Positions 93 to 34,144 of a stretch of 35,142 nt of DNA are shown here, one piece after another; within the stretch, counting starts at the first letter, position 1, and every line of letters begins with the position of its first letter. The position numbers were made by a program, and so were the translations under genes. The notes under the pieces are model-generated. The model was given only the letters and a program-made list of their open reading frames with translations, did no database searches and had not been told where the DNA came from. The stretch is taken from the sequence record SRR20825006_752, one strand, 5' to 3'.

Positions 93-1162
93 TCATTTCC
101 GGCGTGTTTCCATTGCTGTTTTTGCGGATTCCATGAAGTCCGGTGCGTGGTGCCCGTAGACCTTTTCTATGGTCTCTTGGCTGGTTGCAAAGTATCCCGC
201 CGCCTCCCACGTCTTGACGCCGTTCTGCAAAGCCCATGTGATCGCTGTATGCTTGAGCGTGTGCGGAGAGACGCCGGAAAGGCCTGCTGCCTTTACCGCC
301 TTGGCGAACCCGCGCTTGGGGTCTTTGATCAAACCTCCGTTGTATTCAACCGCCCAAACGCACCCTTCGGCCTTCCACCGCCGTAAATGGCAAAGAAGCT
401 GTCGTGGGATCGGCGCTTGTTTGTTACCCGCTCGCCTTCGGACATGCGAAACATGATACCGGCGTCGAGGTCGAACCACCCGCCGATGGTGTTTTTCTCA
501 AAACCCATGCGAATGATCGCGTCCTTGCGCGTTCCAGTGTAAAGGCCAATCAGGATAAACCGCGCGATGTGCTTTGACTTATGGCCGCGATATGCCGCCC
601 AAAGAAGGTGTGCAGCTTCGTCTCGGGTCAGCCACCTTTCTTTGGGTTGCGGTTTGGCTGGAAGGGTCACGATGGGGGCGCTGGTCAGAAAGCCCTCTTT
701 GTGGCAATAATTCAGCGCAGCTTGCAGTGTGCCAAGCTCGCGCCGAACGGTTCCGGCAGCAACAGGTTCCCACGCAACCGGTTCTCCGGCATCGTCCCGC
801 GCGGTGACCTTCTTGCGGTATTTCGCATATCTGCGACACGTCTCGCCTTTGACATGCGCCACTTTTAGTTCAGACCAAAACGGAATTAAGGCATCGAGCG
901 CGTAACCGATGCGCTCAGGCGCGGCGACTGTTGGCGCATATTCCTCAGCATAGACCGCAAGAGCCTCACCTACGGTTACGTTTCCCGGCTCATTGGCAGA
1001 ACCTTCGCGGCCTTTTGTGGCGATGTACGCTGCGAGGGCTTTTTCAGCCTCGTCGCGGCCAGTGTAACCCGTGCTCCGGTCTGGCTGTCCCGTGTCTCTG
1101 ATATACCAGTGCGGGCGGTGCTTGAATTTGTGGAGCCTTGCTCCTTTGGCTGGTCTCGGCAT
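93..1162 (-). pseudogene. int: Tyrosine recombinase/phage integrase split by a frameshift near 411-416
   Basis: ORF 329..1162 has the arm-binding N-terminus and catalytic Arg motif LYTGTRKDAI. ORF 93..479, in another frame, has HTLKHTAITW and the catalytic Tyr (KVYGHH). The frames switch at ...NKRR / APIPRQL. Confidence 0.85.
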
Positions 1163-3594: not shown

Positions 3595-3707
3595 GCAGGA
3601 TCGCTTGGTAACCGCTGCCCTGAACGCAAGATGAGGGGCGGGCTGACGGACGTCCGACGCATAGGATATTGGACTAAAGCTTTCAGTCAAAATGGCCCCG
3701 ATCCTGC
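3595..3707 (-). ncRNA. Candidate DUF3800-associated structured RNA
   Basis: A perfect 9-bp closing stem (3595-3603 / 3699-3707) encloses internal hairpins GACTGAA-AGC-TTTAGTC, CGGACGTCCG and GCCC...GGGC. It overlaps the DUF3800 stop and precedes a terminator. Confidence 0.6.
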
Positions 3708-4556
3708 GCCTAGTTCAGCTCTTGAGTATCCGTAGTGTAGGAAGAAATTGGCTTGTAGGTCCGTTAGTCCGATTATGCGGTGGTTTGGTGGCTGTAGTGC
3801 GATTCCAAAATCTCTTCGAGTGCCAACCTCGTCTTTGCAAATGATTGGTTTCAAGGCGAGGCCTGGCTCTTGTGTCCATCGCGGGCCTCCTGGATTTACC
3901 GCTTGGTACGCTGCGCTTGCTACAATGTCCGCAAACTGAAGTCCTGGCTGTGTGTAGTGAGGAACGTAATCAATCAGGCGAAATCCAATAAATCTGAAAT
4001 CAATCGCCCGCTTGTTCAATACGGGGTTGTGTTGGTAGCGAAGCTTCTCGAAGTATGCTTTTGTTTGTCCATAAGAGTGCCCGCCTCGCTGACTGAATAT
4101 AATTTTTATCTTGTTGTTTTCTTCGGGGTGGCCCTTGCAATCTTTGGCGCAAAAGTCAGTGACGCGCTCGAGGAGTAGGCGGACAATCCAGTTATAGAAC
4201 CATTGCTTCCCACCGGCTTGGGCTGCTCGCTCGTTGTTGTACCCTTCCATGTTTTTCTTGTTGGATGCTACGATAAAGGCACGTGCAGGGTATTGCGATA
4301 GCAGTTGGACGGATCTGAGTTGCTTGCTGGGGCTGAGCTTTCTGTAGTGAAGCGCGCGCGACTTGAGGTTGATGTCTGTAACAATTTCGGCGAGTTTGGC
4401 TTCGCATTCGTTCTCTTGATTGGATCTGATAAGGTAGCCTGCCAATACGAGCCACTCCGAGGCGCCATTCGGGCTTAAGGGGTAGACGCGTTTTAATCCG
4501 TCGTCCCCTGCTTCGTCTATGTATAGGATATAACTATATTTTTGTGTGTTGCTCAT
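3687..4556 (-). CDS. DUF3800 domain protein (predicted RNase H-like fold)
   Basis: N-terminal LYIDEAG and C-terminal GLQFADIVA motifs; AT-rich; ATG directly follows the cI TGA. Confidence 0.85.
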   Translation of the reverse strand: MSNTQKYSYILYIDEAGDDGLKRVYPLSPNGASEWLVLAGYLIRSNQENECEAKLAEIVTDINLKSRALHYRKLSPSKQLRSVQLLSQYPARAFIVASNKKNMEGYNNERAAQAGGKQWFYNWIVRLLLERVTDFCAKDCKGHPEENNKIKIIFSQRGGHSYGQTKAYFEKLRYQHNPVLNKRAIDFRFIGFRLIDYVPHYTQPGLQFADIVASAAYQAVNPGGPRWTQEPGLALKPIICKDEVGTRRDFGIALQPPNHRIIGLTDLQANFFLHYGYSRAELGAGSGPF

Positions 4557-28274: not shown

Positions 28275-28631
28275 ATGCTGATCATGGTTTGCGCTCTCAT
28301 TTCTGTTGTCGATGGTGATACCGTCAAATGCGATGGTCAAAGTATCCGTCTTATTGGCGACGGTGCTCCTTTTAAATCAGGCTTTGATACACCAGAAACC
28401 TACAGACCCAAGTGTCAGCAAGAGTTGGAACTTGGGCGCGCCGCAACTGCGCGTATGAGACAGCTTGTCCTTGACGCAGTGGGTATTGAGGACACAGGCC
28501 AACATGACAGATACGGACGCGTTTTGGGTCGTCTGGTATTGAAAAATGGCAAAACTGCTGGGGAAGTTCTTATTGAAGAGGGCTACGCAGTTCGTTGGAA
28601 GCCGAAAGCCAAAATTGATTGGTGCCGATAA
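28275..28631 (+). CDS. Thermonuclease (SNase-like) family protein
   Basis: VVDGDTV, IRL, FDTPET, DRYGRVLG, LIEEGYAV, C-terminal WC. Confidence 0.88.
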   Translation: MLIMVCALISVVDGDTVKCDGQSIRLIGDGAPFKSGFDTPETYRPKCQQELELGRAATARMRQLVLDAVGIEDTGQHDRYGRVLGRLVLKNGKTAGEVLIEEGYAVRWKPKAKIDWCR

Positions 28632-29301: not shown

Positions 29302-30174
29302 TTGTTTCTGCTGCGCCCTTCAGTTTACCAAGGGTCTGCGAAGGTGCTAGACGATAATCAGATCAATGAATGGTTGTTCGAATTGATGTTAAAACGCGAG
29401 GTTCTCGAAGGATTTGAACGACCAATCCGCGAGCTCGTCAAAATCTGTAAATCTGTTGAGGAATTTCATTTAGTCGCGCACACAGTGGAGAACTTAATTG
29501 TGCTGACGTCTGGTCAAATGTCCAAACAGCTCAACACAATGTCGGACTACATAAAAGATGAAATTGATGATGGCTCACCCCTAGCCATTGTCGCTATGGC
29601 TTGGGGGAACAGCCCTGATAGCTCTCAGGCTTTGGTGCAAATGCTTAAGCCGAAGTTTCGCCGTCTTGAAAATATAAAATTTTTTAACAGCGTCCCCGAA
29701 TACGAGAAGAAGTCATACATTGAAAAATATCCCAAGTTTGTTCTTGTCGATGACTTTGCGGGAACGGGGAATACCGTTTTGGGTCGTCTAGAACACATAT
29801 TGAAACACGCTAAAGGAAAAAAAGTTAATGTAGACCCGCACGTTTGCTTGCTGTTTGGGATGGCAAAAGCATTTGAGACTGTGTCCGCGCAGCTCGGAGC
29901 AACCCACTTTTGCAACAGGATCAAAGCTGGAATTAGCGGATACTTCGCGGGAGAGGAACTGACCCAAAGGATTTCCAACATGAAGCGGCTGGAGGAAGAG
30001 CTGGCTACAGACATAGACGGTCACCCCATGCCGTCTTTAGGCCATGGAGAGGCGGAAGCTCTGTTCTTTGTTAAGGACGGAAATGCTCCTAACTCCAACT
30101 TTCCGATTTTTTGGTGGCCAAAGGACGTCGACAACCTCGACCGTTACACCGTGATGGAGCGCGCAGAACTATGA
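29302..30174 (+). CDS. Retron-associated phosphoribosyltransferase-like effector (start may be GTG 29344)
   Basis: PRPP-binding loop FVLVDDFAGTGNT; C-terminal SLGHG...LFF....PNSNFPIFWW; operonic with the winged-helix gene and RT. Confidence 0.85.
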   Translation: MFLLRPSVYQGSAKVLDDNQINEWLFELMLKREVLEGFERPIRELVKICKSVEEFHLVAHTVENLIVLTSGQMSKQLNTMSDYIKDEIDDGSPLAIVAMAWGNSPDSSQALVQMLKPKFRRLENIKFFNSVPEYEKKSYIEKYPKFVLVDDFAGTGNTVLGRLEHILKHAKGKKVNVDPHVCLLFGMAKAFETVSAQLGATHFCNRIKAGISGYFAGEELTQRISNMKRLEEELATDIDGHPMPSLGHGEAEALFFVKDGNAPNSNFPIFWWPKDVDNLDRYTVMERAEL

Positions 30175-30542
30175 ACGAAGTAAAGCTGACTAGTGTAGAG
30201 ATCGTACTTCTTAAAGCTGCACTCCGCTTGCCCGATGGTGTCTTCGTAGGTGGAATAACGGCAAAAATGGGCATCTCCATGAGCGATGCTGTCTCCGCGT
30301 TCAGACGTTTAAGGCGCCACGGTTTTCTAAAGCAAAAAGGTGCTTCACTCCACCTTACCAGCCGTGGACGTGGCTGGATTATGGAGAACCAAAGCCTGTT
30401 CGCGTTCGCTGGCGAAAAAAACTGGCGCAGAGTGCCTGAGAGTTTTCGGGCCAATAAAATTCGCCCTTTTGAACCTTATGCGCCTCGCACCTCGAAGCTG
30501 TCGCGAACGGCTTTTGATGTTGGCGGGACTGGCGGAGAATGA
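30171..30542 (+). CDS. Retron-associated winged-helix protein
   Basis: ATGA-coupled to the PRTase; ITAKMGISMSDAVSAFRRLRRHGFL....SLHLTSRGR wHTH. Confidence 0.82.
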   Translation: MNEVKLTSVEIVLLKAALRLPDGVFVGGITAKMGISMSDAVSAFRRLRRHGFLKQKGASLHLTSRGRGWIMENQSLFAFAGEKNWRRVPESFRANKIRPFEPYAPRTSKLSRTAFDVGGTGGE

Positions 30543-30554
30543 TATGATTAGGCA

Positions 30555-30792
30555 AGAATGGTCGGCGTTAGCGTATAGAAGTGTAGTCGCTTCTACGGTT
30601 AAGGCTCTCGATAACCTGTCGAGAACTCGTTTTTTGAGTTACTCAAAAAGCCGAGTTCTCGTGAGCTCTTCTTCCGAAGGCTCCATATGGGAAACGAAGA
30701 AATTTTTGTTTTTTACTCAAAAACAAAAATTCTCCGATGCCCATATGGCAGCGATGCAAGCATCGAATTGAACAGGTAGCGTCGACCATTCT
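30555..30792 (+). ncRNA. Retron msr-msd ncRNA
   Basis: 16-bp terminal arms AGAATGGTCGGCGTTA (30555-30570) / TAGCGTCGACCATTCT (30777-30792, two G-U pairs); unpaired G30571 right after the 5' arm; msr stem-loops 30576-30595 and 30606-30624; long hairpins 30621-30660 and 30683-30748. Confidence 0.9.
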
Positions 30793-31833
30793 ATGAATTT
30801 TTCAACAGTAAACGCGTGGGAAGCTTACTTCCGAGACATCGGGATCCGGCAGGAGTTGTCCGCCTCCTACATGCCTTTTGTTCGATCATGTATAAAGCGC
30901 GGTATACCGCCGATTTTTGAGCATGAGCACTTGGCCATGCTGCTTGGGTTAGAGGTCGGTACACTGATGTCTATGGTAGAAGCGACTGACAGTTTCTACA
31001 GGACCTTTAAGTTAAAAAAAAGGTCGGGAGGCTTCCGCGAAATTAGAGCGCCATATCCATCCCTTCTTGAAGCTCAGCGTTGGATCAATGAGCATATTCT
31101 GAAAACGGTGAAGCTCCCCAATTGCGTGACTGGTTTTAGGGAAAAGTACTCGATCCTCGATAACGCCCGAATGCACTGCGGACGCGATGAGCTTGTGAAG
31201 ATGGACATTGAAGACTTCTTTCCATCGATTGGCTTTCGAAGGGTCATGTTTGTTTTTGTGAGCCTTGGCTACCCGCAGAACGTCTCCTACACCCTCAGTA
31301 AGCTTTGTTGCCTTGAAGACCAATTGCCGCAAGGAGCCGCAACCAGCCCAACATTGAGCAATATCATCTGTGGAAATATGGATCGGCACTTTTACAAAAT
31401 TTGCAAGAAACATAGGCTCCGATACACGAGATATGCAGACGATATTGCTGTTTCGGGCAAAGAGATACCATCGGGCATCCGTCGCTTACTTTTTGAAATA
31501 ATTGAGAGCGAAGGGTTTAGGGTAAACGAATCTAAGGTTAGATTTTTAGAAAAAGGCGATAGAAAAATCGTCACCGGATTGGATATTTCGTCAGGCAAAC
31601 CGAGGGTCACTCGTAAATTCCGTCGCGAATTGAAAAAGGATGTGTATTTTGTTTGGTCCGCCGGCCTGTCAACACATGTTGCTCGCCGCAAAATTTTTGC
31701 TCCGAACTACATCGATCACTTAGAGGGTCGCGTTCAGTTTTGGGCGAGTATTGAGCCTGATAACGTTCAGATGCAAAAAACCTTGGAGCGTGTCGAGCAT
31801 CTACGGTCCATCTACGGAAGATCAAGGTTCTAA
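30793..31833 (+). CDS. Retron reverse transcriptase
   Basis: KKRSGGFREI.AP, region X NARMH, MDIEDFFPSI, LPQGAATSP.LSN, YTRYADD, region Y VTG. Confidence 0.96.
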   Translation: MNFSTVNAWEAYFRDIGIRQELSASYMPFVRSCIKRGIPPIFEHEHLAMLLGLEVGTLMSMVEATDSFYRTFKLKKRSGGFREIRAPYPSLLEAQRWINEHILKTVKLPNCVTGFREKYSILDNARMHCGRDELVKMDIEDFFPSIGFRRVMFVFVSLGYPQNVSYTLSKLCCLEDQLPQGAATSPTLSNIICGNMDRHFYKICKKHRLRYTRYADDIAVSGKEIPSGIRRLLFEIIESEGFRVNESKVRFLEKGDRKIVTGLDISSGKPRVTRKFRRELKKDVYFVWSAGLSTHVARRKIFAPNYIDHLEGRVQFWASIEPDNVQMQKTLERVEHLRSIYGRSRF

Positions 31834-31844
31834 ACTTTGCGCGT

Positions 31845-32007
31845 GCGGCGAACGTCCTGAATGCGGGCTGCAATCGCAGCATCCAGATCTCATTGCGGAG
31901 GTCAGCACTGGGCCGAAAGTGACGTTCAATACCAAGGGCAGGAACTCTAAGCGCGTGAACAACGGCCCGCCTTGCCGATGTTCTGTTTTGCTGCGAATGT
32001 CGGCTTC
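31845..32007. repeat. Cluster of cassette-junction sites between retron and RM module
   Basis: GCGGCGAACGTCC (31845), GCGGAGGTCAGCACTGGGCCGAAAGTGACGTTC (31895-31927), hairpin GCCGATGTTC...GAATGTCGGC (31974-32004). Confidence 0.65.
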
Positions 32008-32603
32008 TATTTTCCGGCGACAAACGCGCCCGACTTAACAGCTATTACCAGTAGGGGGCATCCACCCGCGCCTCCCCCATCGATTTTAGGAATAAGCTTA
32101 TTAAGGTGCGTCGTGGATGCACCGTACTTGCTACCGATGTTAAGTGGCTTGAAAACATCAGCCTGCAAACCAGAGTCGCGAGTCACGATGATCCCGACAC
32201 TAATTGCGCCTAGCGTGTGGAGCATACGGAAGTTGTTGAGGTCACGATCATAGAACTCGGTCTTGTTATTCCATTCAATGTCGAGCGCGATGCGTCCCTT
32301 AACGCAATCAATCTTATGGGTGGGGGTCGCATAGGTTACACCATCAATCACCGTGGCTGTATCAAAGCCCTTTTCAGCCCAGCCTCGCTTGTACAGCGCG
32401 CCATCGAGGAAGCCTGAGACTAGGGACTTCCCTCCACCGCCTTGCGTAATGCTACTTTCCCTCAACTCAAATGCGCCGAGGACTTCACACAGGTCTTCGA
32501 ACTGTTCAGGGAATTCACCCTTCAAAATCGCCAAGGCATGACGCCATTCCATAATGCCGTATTTGTCCGAGAAACCTGCCGGGAAATAACTGTACGGGTC
32601 CAT
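32007..32603 (-). CDS. BglII/BstYI-family type II restriction endonuclease
   Basis: GGGKS, GWAEK, HKIDCVKGRIALDIEWNNK..FYDRDLNNFR, KYGASTTH..KL.P...GG.GGCP. Confidence 0.85.
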   Translation of the reverse strand: MDPYSYFPAGFSDKYGIMEWRHALAILKGEFPEQFEDLCEVLGAFELRESSITQGGGGKSLVSGFLDGALYKRGWAEKGFDTATVIDGVTYATPTHKIDCVKGRIALDIEWNNKTEFYDRDLNNFRMLHTLGAISVGIIVTRDSGLQADVFKPLNIGSKYGASTTHLNKLIPKIDGGGAGGCPLLVIAVKSGAFVAGK

Positions 32604-32604
32604 A

Positions 32605-32859
32605 TTAGCCTTCACTCAATTTCAGTTCTTGCTCAAACTGTGCGACGAAGTCGAGCAGGCTAACACCGCAGCAAAGAGCAATCTCTCGCACTTCGATCAA
32701 GGTTAACTTCCGTTGTCCAGCCTCATATTTCGAGACATAGCTTTGGGGATGCCCAAGCTTTCTGGAAAGCTGCGTTTGCGTTAGCTGCGCAGTTACTCTG
32801 ATACCGATCAGTATCTCTCGTTGAATTGTGTTCTGCACGTCTTGCTTATCGGTAGCCAT
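32605..32859 (-). CDS. XRE-family HTH controller protein of the RM module
   Basis: LTQTQLSRKLGHPQSYVSKYEAGQRKL; directly upstream of and co-oriented with the endonuclease. Confidence 0.88.
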   Translation of the reverse strand: MATDKQDVQNTIQREILIGIRVTAQLTQTQLSRKLGHPQSYVSKYEAGQRKLTLIEVREIALCCGVSLLDFVAQFEQELKLSEG

Positions 32860-32878: not shown

Positions 32879-32933
32879 ACTCCGTCCGCATAGAAAACAC
32901 TATCCCGTTTTGGAATAGTGTTTACACCGGAGT
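32879..32933. promoter_or_regulatory. Palindromic operator between the divergent controller/endonuclease and methyltransferase genes
   Basis: AAACACTAT (32895-32903) / ATAGTGTTT (32915-32923) around TATCCCGTTTTGGAATA; outer ACTCCG/CGGAGT. Confidence 0.7.
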
Positions 32934-32977
32934 GCGAAGCCTTGCTCACAACTGTCCAAGACTCACCATGCCTGAAA

Positions 32978-34144
32978 GTGCAAGAATACCCAAGCCTCAT
33001 AAAGTACATGGGGTCCAAGTCCAAGATCATGGGATTTGTCCTTGGTGGTATCAATCACGTGCGCGACGACCGCCCTATATGCGACTTATTCTCTGGGAGC
33101 GGCTCTCTATCAGGTGCGATTGGGCAACAAGCTACCGTGGTGTCTAATGACATTCAGGCCTACTCCGGCTTGCTTGCTGATACATACAACCGGGCATATC
33201 GGGACCAGTCGACTCCTAGCGCCGATCAACTATTGGGTCTCGCTGCTGAAATCCTAGAGCGTCGTAAGCGCAAGTTGGTGGTGGACTATGGTAGTGATAT
33301 GCCCTTCGCGGTCTTCAATGAGCATGAGGAACGCCAGAGGGCGCTCTTGACCCAAGACTTCGATTATAGGTGGCACCTGTTCGCCAAGAACTACTCTGGA
33401 ACGTGGTGGAGCTATGAGCAATGCCTCTGGATTGATGCCCTTAGGGAAGTTGCTGAGGGCTACCGATCCAAGCCTATTTATCCTGCCATAATGTCTTCGC
33501 TGATGTTCGCAATGGCCTACGCAAGCCAAGGTACAGGGCATTACGCTCAGTATCGGGACGCCAAAACAAACTCGTCGCATAAGGACATTTTGATTTATCG
33601 GAAGCGCTCCATTGGTCAGTATTTCCAGAGGAAATACAACGACGTGTTGCAGTACATTCCTAACAAGCCCGTAATCGCGCGCCATCAATCAACGGCACTT
33701 GATTTTAAGGATTGTCTAAAAAACTTTGGTGGAGGCACAGTCTATGCGGACCCTCCGTATTGCTTCGTCCATTACAGCCGTTTCTATCATGCTCTGGAAA
33801 CACTAGTCTTGTATGACTTTCCGAAGCTTCAAGTCCAAAGGGGAAAAGTCGTCAAAGGACGTTATCGCGAAGAGCGCCACCAGTCTCCTTTCTGTATTCA
33901 GTCTCAAGTTCGCGGCGCATTTGAAGACCTTTTTAATGGCGTCAGGGCAAGCAACTCGTCTCTCGTGCTCAGCTATTCAAATACAGGTATGATTTCCTTG
34001 GACGAACTTCTTTCTATTGGCAGGAAAGCTCTGCCCAATTGGAAAATTGAAGTACTGACCACCGATCACGAGCACATGACAATGGGGCGAAAAGAGGATC
34101 GCCAACGCAGTGTAAAGGAGGGGTTACTTCTGGCACACGCGTAA
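32978..34144 (+). CDS. D12-class N6-adenine DNA methyltransferase (start uncertain: GTG 32978 or 32918)
   Basis: KYMGSK, DLFSGSG, SNDIQ, YADPPY, YSRFYH.LETL, LSYSN. Confidence 0.9.
   Translation: MQEYPSLIKYMGSKSKIMGFVLGGINHVRDDRPICDLFSGSGSLSGAIGQQATVVSNDIQAYSGLLADTYNRAYRDQSTPSADQLLGLAAEILERRKRKLVVDYGSDMPFAVFNEHEERQRALLTQDFDYRWHLFAKNYSGTWWSYEQCLWIDALREVAEGYRSKPIYPAIMSSLMFAMAYASQGTGHYAQYRDAKTNSSHKDILIYRKRSIGQYFQRKYNDVLQYIPNKPVIARHQSTALDFKDCLKNFGGGTVYADPPYCFVHYSRFYHALETLVLYDFPKLQVQRGKVVKGRYREERHQSPFCIQSQVRGAFEDLFNGVRASNSSLVLSYSNTGMISLDELLSIGRKALPNWKIEVLTTDHEHMTMGRKEDRQRSVKEGLLLAHA

What the first reader, a model, noticed from the sequence alone, without database searches (positions are those of the whole stretch)
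30621..30776. Multi-hairpin msd with a duplicated TTACTCAAAAA motif at two hairpin tips
Seen: instead of one long stem there are hairpin A (30621-30660, GAGAACTCG-TTTTTTGAGT-T-ACTCAAAAA-GC-CGAGTTCTC), a short stem (30663-30683), hairpin B (30683-30748, CCATATGGG...AATTTTTGTTTTT-TACTC-AAAAACAAAAATT...CCCATATGG) and a small CGATGC/GCATCG stem (30752-30765). The 11-mer TTACTCAAAAA sits at both long tips (30639-30649, 30713-30723), each with A-tract stems. Hairpin A overlaps the second msr stem by 4 nt. Inference: two equivalent docking sites for the winged-helix protein, or decoys for a phage DNA-binding protein.
Basis: partly seen in the sequence, partly recalled or inferred. Interest (0 to 1): 0.7.

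Follow-up and report, generated by a model that had tools for sequence, protein, structure and literature searches.

The report
Type III-A retron ncRNA hairpins
This stretch is the template RNA gene of a known kind of bacterial anti-phage retron; its row of hairpins is normal for the family, and the repeated 11-base motif at two hairpin tips is real but found only in this lineage.

Summary
The hairpins and the duplicated TTACTCAAAAA are at the stated coordinates and exceed chance. The locus is a type III-A retron with separate PRTase (29302-30174) and winged-helix (30171-30542) genes, an msr-msd ncRNA (30553-30795) and an RT (30793-31833). It lies next to a siphovirus-like prophage.

The multi-hairpin layout is the family norm. 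The same order of elements recurs in 24 non-identical relatives with 31-60% RT identity, with strong compensatory change: 91.5% of cells paired against 54.7% in shuffles, 0 of 500 shuffles as high.

The 11-mer duplication is private to this lineage. The nearest retrievable relatives keep 6 of 11 positions at the hairpin B tip. None of the 23 other relatives shares a motif of more than 9 bases between the two hairpins. The two copies also differ in context, stem in A and loop in B.

Whether hairpin A is copied into DNA is unresolved. Strand-symmetry statistics say it behaves like hairpin B. Analogy with the mapped 101-nt msDNA of Retron-Eco11 says it stays RNA. A conserved docking role for the 11-mer is not supported, but is not excluded either. 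Verdict: new member of a known kind.

The parts
29302..30174 (+). PRTase-like effector gene (290 codons from the first possible start, TTG; the true start is uncertain)
   Evidence: PADLOC PRTase_III-A 2.4e-63 and Pfam PRTase-CE 1.4e-18. The PRPP-loop-like motif FVLVDDFAGTGNT and a PNSNFP motif are in the translation.
30171..30542 (+). Winged-helix protein gene, 123 aa, whose ATG overlaps the PRTase stop (ATGA)
   Evidence: PADLOC WH_III-A 5e-17 on the longer ORF 30111-30542. ATGA overlap seen, translation. Relatives have ORFs of 92-149 aa at the same place.
30555..30570 (+). a1 arm of the terminal inverted repeat
   Evidence: 16-nt arm, 88% complementary to 30777-30792. Helix kept with changes on both sides in 15 of 16 pairs over 18 sequences.
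30571..30571 (+). Predicted branching G (TTA-G)
   Evidence: First unpaired G after a1, preceded by TTA, with G30775/30776 opposite. The census preprint 10.1101/2024.01.25.577267 (passages read) reports a TTA-G consensus. Inferred, not mapped.
30576..30595 (+). msr stem-loop 1 (core GAAGUGUAGUCGCUUC), conserved in sequence
   Evidence: Conserved U.G pair (UG in 14 of 18 lettered rows). RNA-only signature: 24 G.U of 179 pairs on the sense strand against 1 of 152 antisense.
30597..30617 (+). msr stem-loop 2 / conserved UUAAGG motif; pairing register uncertain
   Evidence: The minimum-energy fold pairs 30597-601 with 30612-16. The consensus pairs 30602-06 with 30613-17. This is the least supported helix, at 75.6% of cells paired.
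30620..30661 (+). Hairpin A: 10-bp lower stem, GC bulge, 9-bp A/T upper stem, loop UUA. First 11-mer at 30639-30649
   Evidence: Changes on both sides in 19 of 19 pairs, 95% of cells paired. Tip TGAG-N3-CTCA shared with L085 and L086. Whether it ends up as RNA or DNA is unresolved.
30663..30683 (+). Short hairpin of about 21 nt, with conserved length in relatives (12-33 nt)
   Evidence: Changes on both sides in 8 of 8 pairs. Candidate site of RT termination and the DNA-RNA duplex (inference).
30684..30747 (+). Hairpin B, the long msd stem-loop. Second 11-mer at 30713-30723 (loop TACTC)
   Evidence: Changes on both sides in 27 of 27 pairs. Same position and size as DSLb (69 nt) of Retron-Eco11 (PMC12746101, section 26 read).
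30752..30765 (+). Mini hairpin CGATGC-AA-GCATCG next to a2
   Evidence: Changes on both sides in 5 of 5 pairs. A mini hairpin of 12-15 nt sits at the same place in 4 of 5 III-A3-like loci folded. Matches Eco11 DSLa (13 nt).
30777..30792 (+). a2 arm, ending directly before the RT start codon
30793..31833 (+). Retron reverse transcriptase, 346 aa
   Evidence: PADLOC RT_III-A 6.5e-126, Pfam RVT_1 4.1e-18. Nearest solved chain is the Ec86 RT, 3.3e-41.

Best explanation
Window 30553-30795 is the msr-msd non-coding RNA gene of a type III-A retron with separate PRTase and winged-helix genes (III-A2-like). It lies between the WH gene and the RT gene.

The transcript folds with a1/a2 closing a multi-branched loop. 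That loop holds two small, sequence-conserved RNA stem-loops (presumably the RT handles), hairpin A, a hairpin of about 20 nt, the long hairpin B and a mini hairpin. This order of elements is the family norm, not a feature of this locus.

The RT should prime from the 2'-OH of G30571 and copy leftwards from about 30775. The mini hairpin and hairpin B are therefore certainly in the msDNA. Copying then either stops about 10 nt past hairpin A, inside the short hairpin, giving an msDNA of about 101-105 nt as mapped for Retron-Eco11. Or it runs on through hairpin A, giving about 146-156 nt. I put the first option at about 55%.

By analogy with Eco11, RT-msDNA holds the PRTase/WH effector inactive until a phage factor disturbs the msDNA. 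This step is inferred.

The duplicated 11-mer is a private, recent feature of this lineage. The two tips were already similar and A/T-rich in relatives, and became identical over 11 nt through a few substitutions or a local conversion. It is not a conserved docking element.
For: Gene calls:
- PADLOC RT_III-A 6.5e-126, PRTase_III-A 2.4e-63, WH_III-A 5e-17; Pfam.

Architecture:
- Seen by eye in 15 relatives.
- 24 non-identical loci of the 46 parsed fit the five-part size pattern.
- 21 of 26 loci checked have an ORF of 275-304 aa followed by one of 92-149 aa upstream. Four lacked upstream DNA and one had a 609-aa ORF (by size and position only).

Covariation:
- 37 of 90 pairs changed on both sides among 3 sequences.
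- In the model-fitted alignment of 21 rows, 91.5% of cells are paired against 54.7% in shuffles (0 of 500 as high) and 36-40% with partners slid.
- On the 18 sense rows, all 19 hairpin A pairs and all 27 hairpin B pairs change on both sides.

The motif is private:
- Hairpin B 11-mer positions kept: 6 of 11 in L085 and 6 of 11 in L086. Hairpin A: 7 and 8 of 11.
- Longest common substring between hairpins A and B is 11 in the window and 3-9 in the 23 others. Mean 5.4 against 5.1 in the cross-locus control.

Stop near hairpin A:
- Eco11 msDNA is 101 nt, made of DSLa 13 nt and DSLb 69 nt, with three RNA stem-loops (PMC12746101, section 26 read).
- The window's mini stem (14 nt) and hairpin B (64 nt) match those sizes.
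- 4 of 5 III-A3-like loci folded show the mini hairpin next to a2.
- In Eco11, replacing segments of the DSLb stem abolished neither helicase binding nor editing (same paper, passages read).
Against: - Hairpin A does not look like an RNA-only helix. G.U pairs are 8 of 440 on the sense strand against 10 of 439 antisense, the same as hairpin B (9 of 454 against 10 of 457). The RNA-only a1/a2 helix has 21 of 299 against 3 of 266 (Fisher p 0.006). Its 19-bp stem and its variable length (25-65 nt) are also typical of msd stems. Both points favour copying through hairpin A.
- The Eco11 analogy crosses ncRNA classes. RT identity to the III-A3-like loci is only 27-33%, and the Eco11 sequence itself could not be obtained.
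- The nearest relatives (RT 72-87% identical) could not be fetched. Conservation of the 11-mer at short distance is therefore untested.
- An 11-mer repeat is unlikely by chance (24 of 5000 shuffles).
- A WH protein reading msdDNA loop bases has a precedent in Retron-Kva2.
- The model-fitted alignment leans towards the structure.
- Sequences are related, so the counts are not independent.
Confidence: 0.75

Rival explanations
1. All of 30621-30776 is reverse-transcribed into an msDNA of about 150 nt with several hairpins. The repeated motif (TTTTTGAGTAA in the DNA) at the tips of hairpins A and B gives two docking sites for the separate winged-helix protein, for example to bridge complexes.
For: - Strand-symmetric pairing of hairpin A, like hairpin B.
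- The antisense DNA folds into the same four hairpins.
- The repeat exceeds chance.
- In type IX Retron-Kva2, the HTH domain of a separate WH protein hydrogen-bonds msdDNA loop bases of a neighbouring complex, and deleting the loop reduced or abolished defence (preprint 10.64898/2026.07.14.738597, passages read).
Against: - The motif is not kept at the hairpin B tip in L085 or L086.
- No sharing between hairpins A and B in the 23 other relatives.
- GAGT is base-paired in A but in the loop in B.
- Segments of the Eco11 DSLb stem are replaceable (PMC12746101).
- The Kva2 WH protein (245 aa, three domains) is unrelated in size to this 123-aa protein.
Confidence: 0.12
2. Hairpin A stays RNA (third msr stem-loop) and hairpin B becomes DNA. 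The RNA 11-mer (UUACUCAAAAA) and the DNA tip of hairpin B (TTTTTGAGTAA) are then exactly complementary. They form a tertiary RNA-DNA contact that compacts or locks the msDNA. Alternatively, in the precursor the 5' arm of hairpin A (30631-39) pairs with the loop of hairpin B (30715-23).
For: 9-nt perfect complementarity between 30631-39 and 30715-23 (pair I7). The 11-nt RNA:DNA complementarity follows directly from the duplication if hairpin A is not copied.
Against: Both partners are sequestered in stable stems, and only 3 nt (A) and 5 nt (B) are unpaired. No equivalent complementarity appears in relatives: longest reverse-complement matches are 3-8 nt in the 23 others.
Confidence: 0.06
3. The tips act as decoys for a phage DNA-binding protein, that is, a trigger-sensing site specific to local phages.
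For: Retron msDNA is the phage sensor in several systems: Eco11 helicases and the Kva2 exonuclease (papers cited above, passages read). A lineage-private motif is what an arms race could produce.
Against: No candidate phage protein or matching site was found. Known triggers recognise structure rather than sequence (Eco11). Nothing here tests this reading.
Confidence: 0.04

Closest known systems
Type III-A2 retrons (Mestre et al. 2020, PMC7736814; Table 1 passages read)
   Same: PRTase-like gene followed by a separate gene for a winged-helix protein, then the ncRNA and the RT. The RT is nearest to clade 9 enzymes: Ec86 is the best solved match.
   Different: Assignment to A2 rather than A1 is inferred from the best PADLOC models and the Ec86 affinity. 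The published IIIA2 ncRNA consensus is in a supplement I could not see. The host lineage here is Rhodobacteraceae-like (source names), beside a prophage.
Retron-Eco11, type III-A3 (PMC12746101)
   Same: PRTase + WH effector chemistry. a1 lies at the effector's 3' end and a2 abuts the RT start. A long msd hairpin plus a mini hairpin of 13-14 nt. msDNA is needed to tether the effector. Probably the same abortive-infection logic.
   Different: In Eco11 the PRTase and WH are fused. [quoted passage not shown] RT identity is only about 27-33%. The Eco11 sequence itself was not obtained.
Retron-Eco1 / Ec86, type II-A3
   Same: Closest solved RT (3.3e-41). UUA-G branching context (recalled). Effector with a C-terminal WH domain contacting the msDNA (as cited in PMC12746101).
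   Different: NDT-like effector rather than PRTase. Two msr stem-loops and a single msd hairpin (recalled from memory, not tested here).
Retron-Kva2, type IX (preprint 10.64898/2026.07.14.738597)
   Same: A separate WH protein is part of the complex and contacts the msdDNA stem-loop, including base-specific loop contacts.
   Different: HEPN effector, a three-domain WH protein of 245 aa, a single msdDNA stem-loop and a different RT clade (2.8e-32).

Membership tests
Retron msr-msd ncRNA | Terminal inverted repeats a1/a2 flanking internal stem-loops, directly upstream of a retron RT | tested here: met
   a1 30555-70 and a2 30777-92. a2 abuts the RT ATG at 30793. Covariation in 15 of 16 pairs.
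Retron msr-msd ncRNA | Branching G after a1 (TTA-G) with an opposing G before a2 | tested here: met
   TTA-G30571 and G30775/30776. The motif is as reported in the census preprint (passages read). Function not shown.
Retron msr-msd ncRNA | Production of branched msDNA | not testable with these tools
   No RNA holder was listed and only contigs were available.
Type III-A retron | RT of the retron type III-A models | tested here: met
   PADLOC RT_III-A PDLC02943, 6.5e-126, 417.6 bits.
Type III-A retron | PRTase-like effector with a PRPP-binding loop | tested here: met
   PRTase_III-A 2.4e-63. FVLVDDFAGTGNT in the translation.
Type III-A retron | Retron-specific motif Gx14PNNxP (as quoted in PMC12746101) | tested here: inconclusive
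   The translation has G-x13-PNSNFP, that is PNxNxP rather than PNNxP.
Type III-A retron | Winged-helix DNA-binding partner | tested here: met
   WH_III-A 5e-17.
Variant III-A2 | PRTase and WH encoded as separate genes | tested here: met
   Different frames with an ATGA overlap.
Variant III-A2 | RT in clade 9 and ncRNA of class IIIA2 | tested here: inconclusive
   Nearest solved RT is Ec86, placed in clade 9 by Mestre 2020. The clade tree and the IIIA2 consensus are in supplements that were not available.
Variant III-A3 (Eco11-like) | PRTase fused to the WH domain (about 400 aa) | tested here: not met
   Two ORFs of 290 and 123 aa. The III-A3-like loci L170 and L171 have ORFs of 382 and 404 aa.
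Any Rfam family | Match at the gathering score | tested here: not met
   0 matches at gathering in the whole window. In 30450-30900: only sub-threshold chance matches, mostly hairpin-like miRNA precursor families.

The most novel reading that the evidence does not exclude
The whole 30621-30776 stretch is copied into an msDNA of about 150 nt that carries two hairpins with the same tip motif. The small stand-alone winged-helix protein reads both tips, so one msDNA recruits or bridges two WH/PRTase units. That would be a bivalent msDNA scaffold not described for any retron.
Probability: 0.1. Interest if true: 0.6.

Novelty: new member of a known kind. Interest (0 to 1): 0.3.

Why it matters
No structure exists for any type III-A retron. 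The PRTase and the WH protein have no solved homologue by sequence. The only mapped type III-A msDNA I found in the open library is Eco11, of the fused variant. The split variant seen here carries two extra conserved hairpins whose fate, RNA or DNA, is unknown.

Mapping one msDNA of this class would show where the RT stops, and so what the separate WH protein can touch. That bears both on the mechanism and on editing uses, because donor placement needs to know the copied region. The repeated 11-mer is a convenient handle for such a test, but by itself it is probably a lineage quirk.

Tried and rejected
- **Rfam.** No match at gathering score in the whole window. With E-values up to 10 in 30450-30900: only sub-threshold chance matches, mostly miRNA precursor families.
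- **Closer relatives.** These were needed to test conservation of the 11-mer, and none closer than 60% RT identity was obtained.
  - The metagenome scan gave only L085 (60%) and L086 (54%) as close ones.
  - Viral contigs gave no relative with the single protein and at most 43% identity with alignment A2.
  - An exact stem-loop 1 pattern had 0 hits.
  - There were no phage matches by blastn. tblastn found 11 plasmid and 4 phage records, all below 60% identity.
  - The genome search found 2 of 401 genomes and 4 of 301, none closer than 46% apart from a truncated RT remnant (L083).
  - Proteins P0001-P0003 (87-72% identical) are known only as proteins.
- **Eco11 sequence.** The published primer found nothing in the loci or in viral contigs. 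L003 against the E. coli genomes gave no match. The III-A3-like loci L170 and L171 have 7 mismatches to the primer.
- **Sequencing runs.** No RNA holder was listed. Contigs of X4 and X5 are identical to the window over the ncRNA, and X6 and X7 cover only the flanks. This gave no variation and no ends.
- **G.U test by subgroup.** The split into 9 and 15 loci is underpowered and inconsistent, so I use only the pooled figures.
- **Automatic parsing of upstream folds without an anchor.** This was unusable because of spurious outer helices.
- **Earlier findings.** Nothing on record.
- **Supplements not seen.** Mestre 2020 (ncRNA consensus figures), the census (RT-DNA coverage for 54 retrons) and Eco11 (Fig. 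S1). These may already show where RT stops in III-A2 ncRNAs.

Full report
**Observation.** The RNA fold of 30540-30800 has these parts:
- a 16-bp closing helix, 30555-70 with 30777-92
- two small stem-loops, 30576-95 and 30597-616
- hairpin A, 30620-61
- a 21-nt hairpin, 30663-83
- hairpin B, 30684-747
- a mini hairpin, 30752-65

The fold energy is -103.5 kcal/mol against -62.5 for shuffles (z -7.71). The complementary strand of 30617-30776, folded as DNA, gives the same four hairpins (z -10.05).

TTACTCAAAAA occurs twice in the window and nowhere else, with 0.00 expected. In the A/T-rich region itself, 24 of 5000 dinucleotide shuffles reach an exact direct repeat of 11 or more. The similarity extends to 31 nt at 71% identity.

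The two copies are not equivalent in structure. In hairpin A the ACTC pairs with GAGT around a 3-nt loop. In hairpin B, TACTC is the loop. The reported 4-nt overlap with a 'second msr stem' refers to an alternative stem, TCTCGA 30606-11 with TCGAGA 30619-24. Neither the minimum-energy fold nor the consensus fold uses it.

**What the locus is.** PADLOC models call the three flanking genes RT_III-A (6.5e-126), PRTase_III-A (2.4e-63) and WH_III-A (5e-17). Pfam agrees for the RT and the PRTase. The WH gene most likely starts at ATG 30171, overlapping the PRTase stop as ATGA, which gives 123 aa.

PRTase and WH are separate genes. In the classification of Mestre et al. 2020 (PMC7736814, Table 1 passages read) that means variant III-A1 or III-A2. 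The fused III-A3 form of Retron-Eco11 is excluded. The nearest solved RT is Ec86 (3.3e-41), which that paper places in clade 9 together with III-A2. I therefore call the locus III-A2-like, as an inference. My initial memory that Mx162 is type III-A was wrong: the paper lists it as type XIII.

**Genomic setting.** The window is a virus record. It carries an integrase (329-1162, minus strand), large terminase, portal, major head protein, tape measure protein and tail fibre. The nearest provirus held (G001) is collinear with window 1347-28135 and ends there. It has no RT match. The nuclease-like ORF, the retron and a BglII-like restriction-modification pair therefore lie just beyond the shared phage backbone. 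They are either variable cargo or a neighbouring island.

**The layout is the family norm.** Folding the 300 nt upstream of the RT in 15 relatives showed the same order of elements.
- With stem-loop 1 as an anchor, 52 of 162 upstream segments parsed. These gave 46 distinct sequences.
- 24 of the 46 fitted the size filter for five successive domains. The other 22 were dropped, mostly because the fold merged neighbouring hairpins.
- Sizes: stem-loop 1 is 16-23 nt and stem-loop 2 is 12-24 nt. Hairpin A is 25-65 nt, the short hairpin 12-33 nt and hairpin B 30-64 nt.
- 21 of 26 loci checked have an ORF of 275-304 aa followed by one of 92-149 aa directly upstream, so they share the split gene order (by size and position only).

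Covariation is strong.
- Among the window, L085 and L086, 37 of 90 pairs changed on both sides.
- A covariance model built from these three found 18 sense-strand matches, plus 3 antisense matches to its own seeds.
- On that alignment, 91.5% of cells pair, against 54.7% in shuffles (0 of 500 as high) and 36-40% when partners are slid.
- On the 18 sense rows, every pair of hairpin A (19 of 19), the short hairpin (8 of 8), hairpin B (27 of 27) and the mini hairpin (5 of 5) shows changes on both sides.
- The alignment was fitted to the model, so it leans towards the structure.

**The 11-mer is private.**
- In the alignment of the three closest sequences, the hairpin A copy keeps 7 and 8 of 11 positions in L085 and L086. 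The palindromic tip TGAG-N3-CTCA is shared.
- The hairpin B copy keeps 6 of 11 positions in both. The B tips of the relatives read TTGATTCAAAG and TTGCTTCAACC, already partly like the motif. A few changes or a local conversion would be enough to produce the identity.
- Across the 24 loci, the longest string shared by hairpins A and B of one locus is 11 in the window and 3-9 elsewhere. The mean is 5.4, against 5.1 for hairpins taken from different loci. Tip sharing is not a family trait.
- The runs that hold this DNA carry the ncRNA unchanged, so they add nothing.
- Relatives with 72-87% identical RTs exist, but their DNA could not be fetched.

**Which hairpins become DNA?** Reverse transcription starts beside a2, so the mini hairpin and hairpin B are copied first. 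Two lines of evidence disagree about hairpin A.

(a) Strand symmetry. A helix that works only as RNA tolerates G.U but not A.C. A helix that must also fold as the complementary DNA tolerates neither, or both equally. G.U pairs, counted in the sense fold and in the fold of the antisense strand, were:

| Helix | Sense | Antisense |
|---|---|---|
| a1/a2 | 21 of 299 | 3 of 266 |
| stem-loop 1 | 24 of 179 | 1 of 152 |
| stem-loop 2 | 22 of 141 | 2 of 85 |
| hairpin A | 8 of 440 | 10 of 439 |
| short hairpin | 3 of 182 | 3 of 183 |
| hairpin B | 9 of 454 | 10 of 457 |

. Hairpin A differs from a1/a2 (Fisher p 0.006) and not from hairpin B (p 1.0). This favours copying through hairpin A. There are caveats:
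- The sequences are related.
- The G.U pairs of stem-loops 1 and 2 are single conserved pairs.
- Long, tight palindromes may be kept perfect by DNA-level processes whatever their function.
- The subgroups are inconsistent.

(b) Analogy with mapped retrons. In Retron-Eco11 the msDNA is 101 nt, with DSLa of 13 nt and DSLb of 69 nt. [quoted passage not shown] I could not obtain the Eco11 sequence. However, 4 of 5 III-A3-like loci that I folded have a long hairpin followed by a mini hairpin of 12-15 nt next to a2 (L171-L174). The fifth (L170) has a 13-nt hairpin on the other side. The window's mini stem (14 nt) and hairpin B (64 nt) match these.

In Kva2, the RT stops 11 nt after the stem-loop held by its thumb, with a 7-bp heteroduplex (preprint, passages read). 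If hairpin A is the last RNA stem-loop here, the stop falls at about 30671-30675, inside the short hairpin. The msDNA would then be about 101-105 nt. If stem-loop 2 is the last RNA stem-loop, the stop falls near 30626-30630 and the msDNA is about 146-156 nt.

The census preprint states that the RT-DNA position can at present only be determined empirically. I put the shorter product at about 55%.

**Function.** The following steps are inferred from Eco11 (passages read). RT and msDNA tether the PRTase/WH effector, and msDNA is required for that binding. A phage helicase acting on the msDNA releases toxicity. There, replacing segments of the DSLb stem left helicase binding and editing intact. 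This argues against a strict sequence role for the long hairpin in the related III-A3 systems.

The Kva2 structure shows that a separate WH protein can read loop bases of the msdDNA. The docking idea is therefore mechanistically possible, but it lacks support at this locus.

**Verdict.** This is a well-formed member of a known retron type. Its ncRNA layout is characteristic of the split PRTase/WH family, and it carries a lineage-private repeated tip motif. The open point of real interest is where the RT stops in this ncRNA class.

Noticed in passing
window 32007-32615 (-) and 32918-34144 (+): A BglII-like restriction endonuclease (Pfam 1.6e-36) and a D12-class N6-adenine methyltransferase (PADLOC MTase_II 4.1e-27) lie directly downstream of the retron. 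Together with it they form a small defence cluster.
   Followed up: no
window 28275-28631 (+): A staphylococcal-nuclease-like ORF of 118 aa (Pfam SNase 5.7e-10) lies between the phage tail region and the retron.
   Followed up: no
window 1347-28135 against G001 (L167+L168): The nearest provirus record is collinear at 71-98% identity up to window 28135, where that record ends. The retron and the R-M genes lie beyond this shared backbone, so they may be variable cargo or flanking host DNA. G001 has no RT match.
   Followed up: partly
L083 1396-1897 (-): Another genome of the same family sample holds only the 3' half of a 92%-identical RT gene (window 31331-31832). It has no homologous 5' half or ncRNA, so it looks like a truncated or recombined retron remnant.
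   Followed up: partly
window 30300-31100 in runs X4 and X5: Word depth of about 3,600-4,000 in runs of only 212-258 million letters. This would fit a small, highly covered replicon such as a phage genome, rather than a chromosome at ordinary depth. Depth elsewhere was not compared.
   Followed up: no
window 30636-30644; L085 and L086 hairpin A tips: The hairpin A tip palindrome TGAG-N3-CTCA is kept in the three closest sequences while the stems below it covary. It is not kept in relatives at about 40% RT identity.
   Followed up: partly
window 30597-30617: Stem-loop 2 has two competing pairing registers, and its G-C pairs hardly vary. The conserved UUAAGG may be a sequence motif rather than a helix.
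   Followed up: no
window 30552-30794 (-), L085 and L086 (-): The covariance model also matches the antisense strand of its own seed loci at 28-42 bits, because most of the ncRNA consists of near-perfect palindromes.
   Followed up: no
window 30063-30083 (PRTase residues ~254-260): The retron PRTase motif quoted as Gx14PNNxP reads G-x13-PNSNFP here.
   Followed up: no
L104, L114, L146, L132 and others (RT 31-36% identical): In the more distant split-type relatives, hairpin A (median 54 nt) is longer than hairpin B (median 41 nt). This is the reverse of the window's subgroup. The assumption that the longest stem is the msd would pick different hairpins in the two subgroups.
   Followed up: partly
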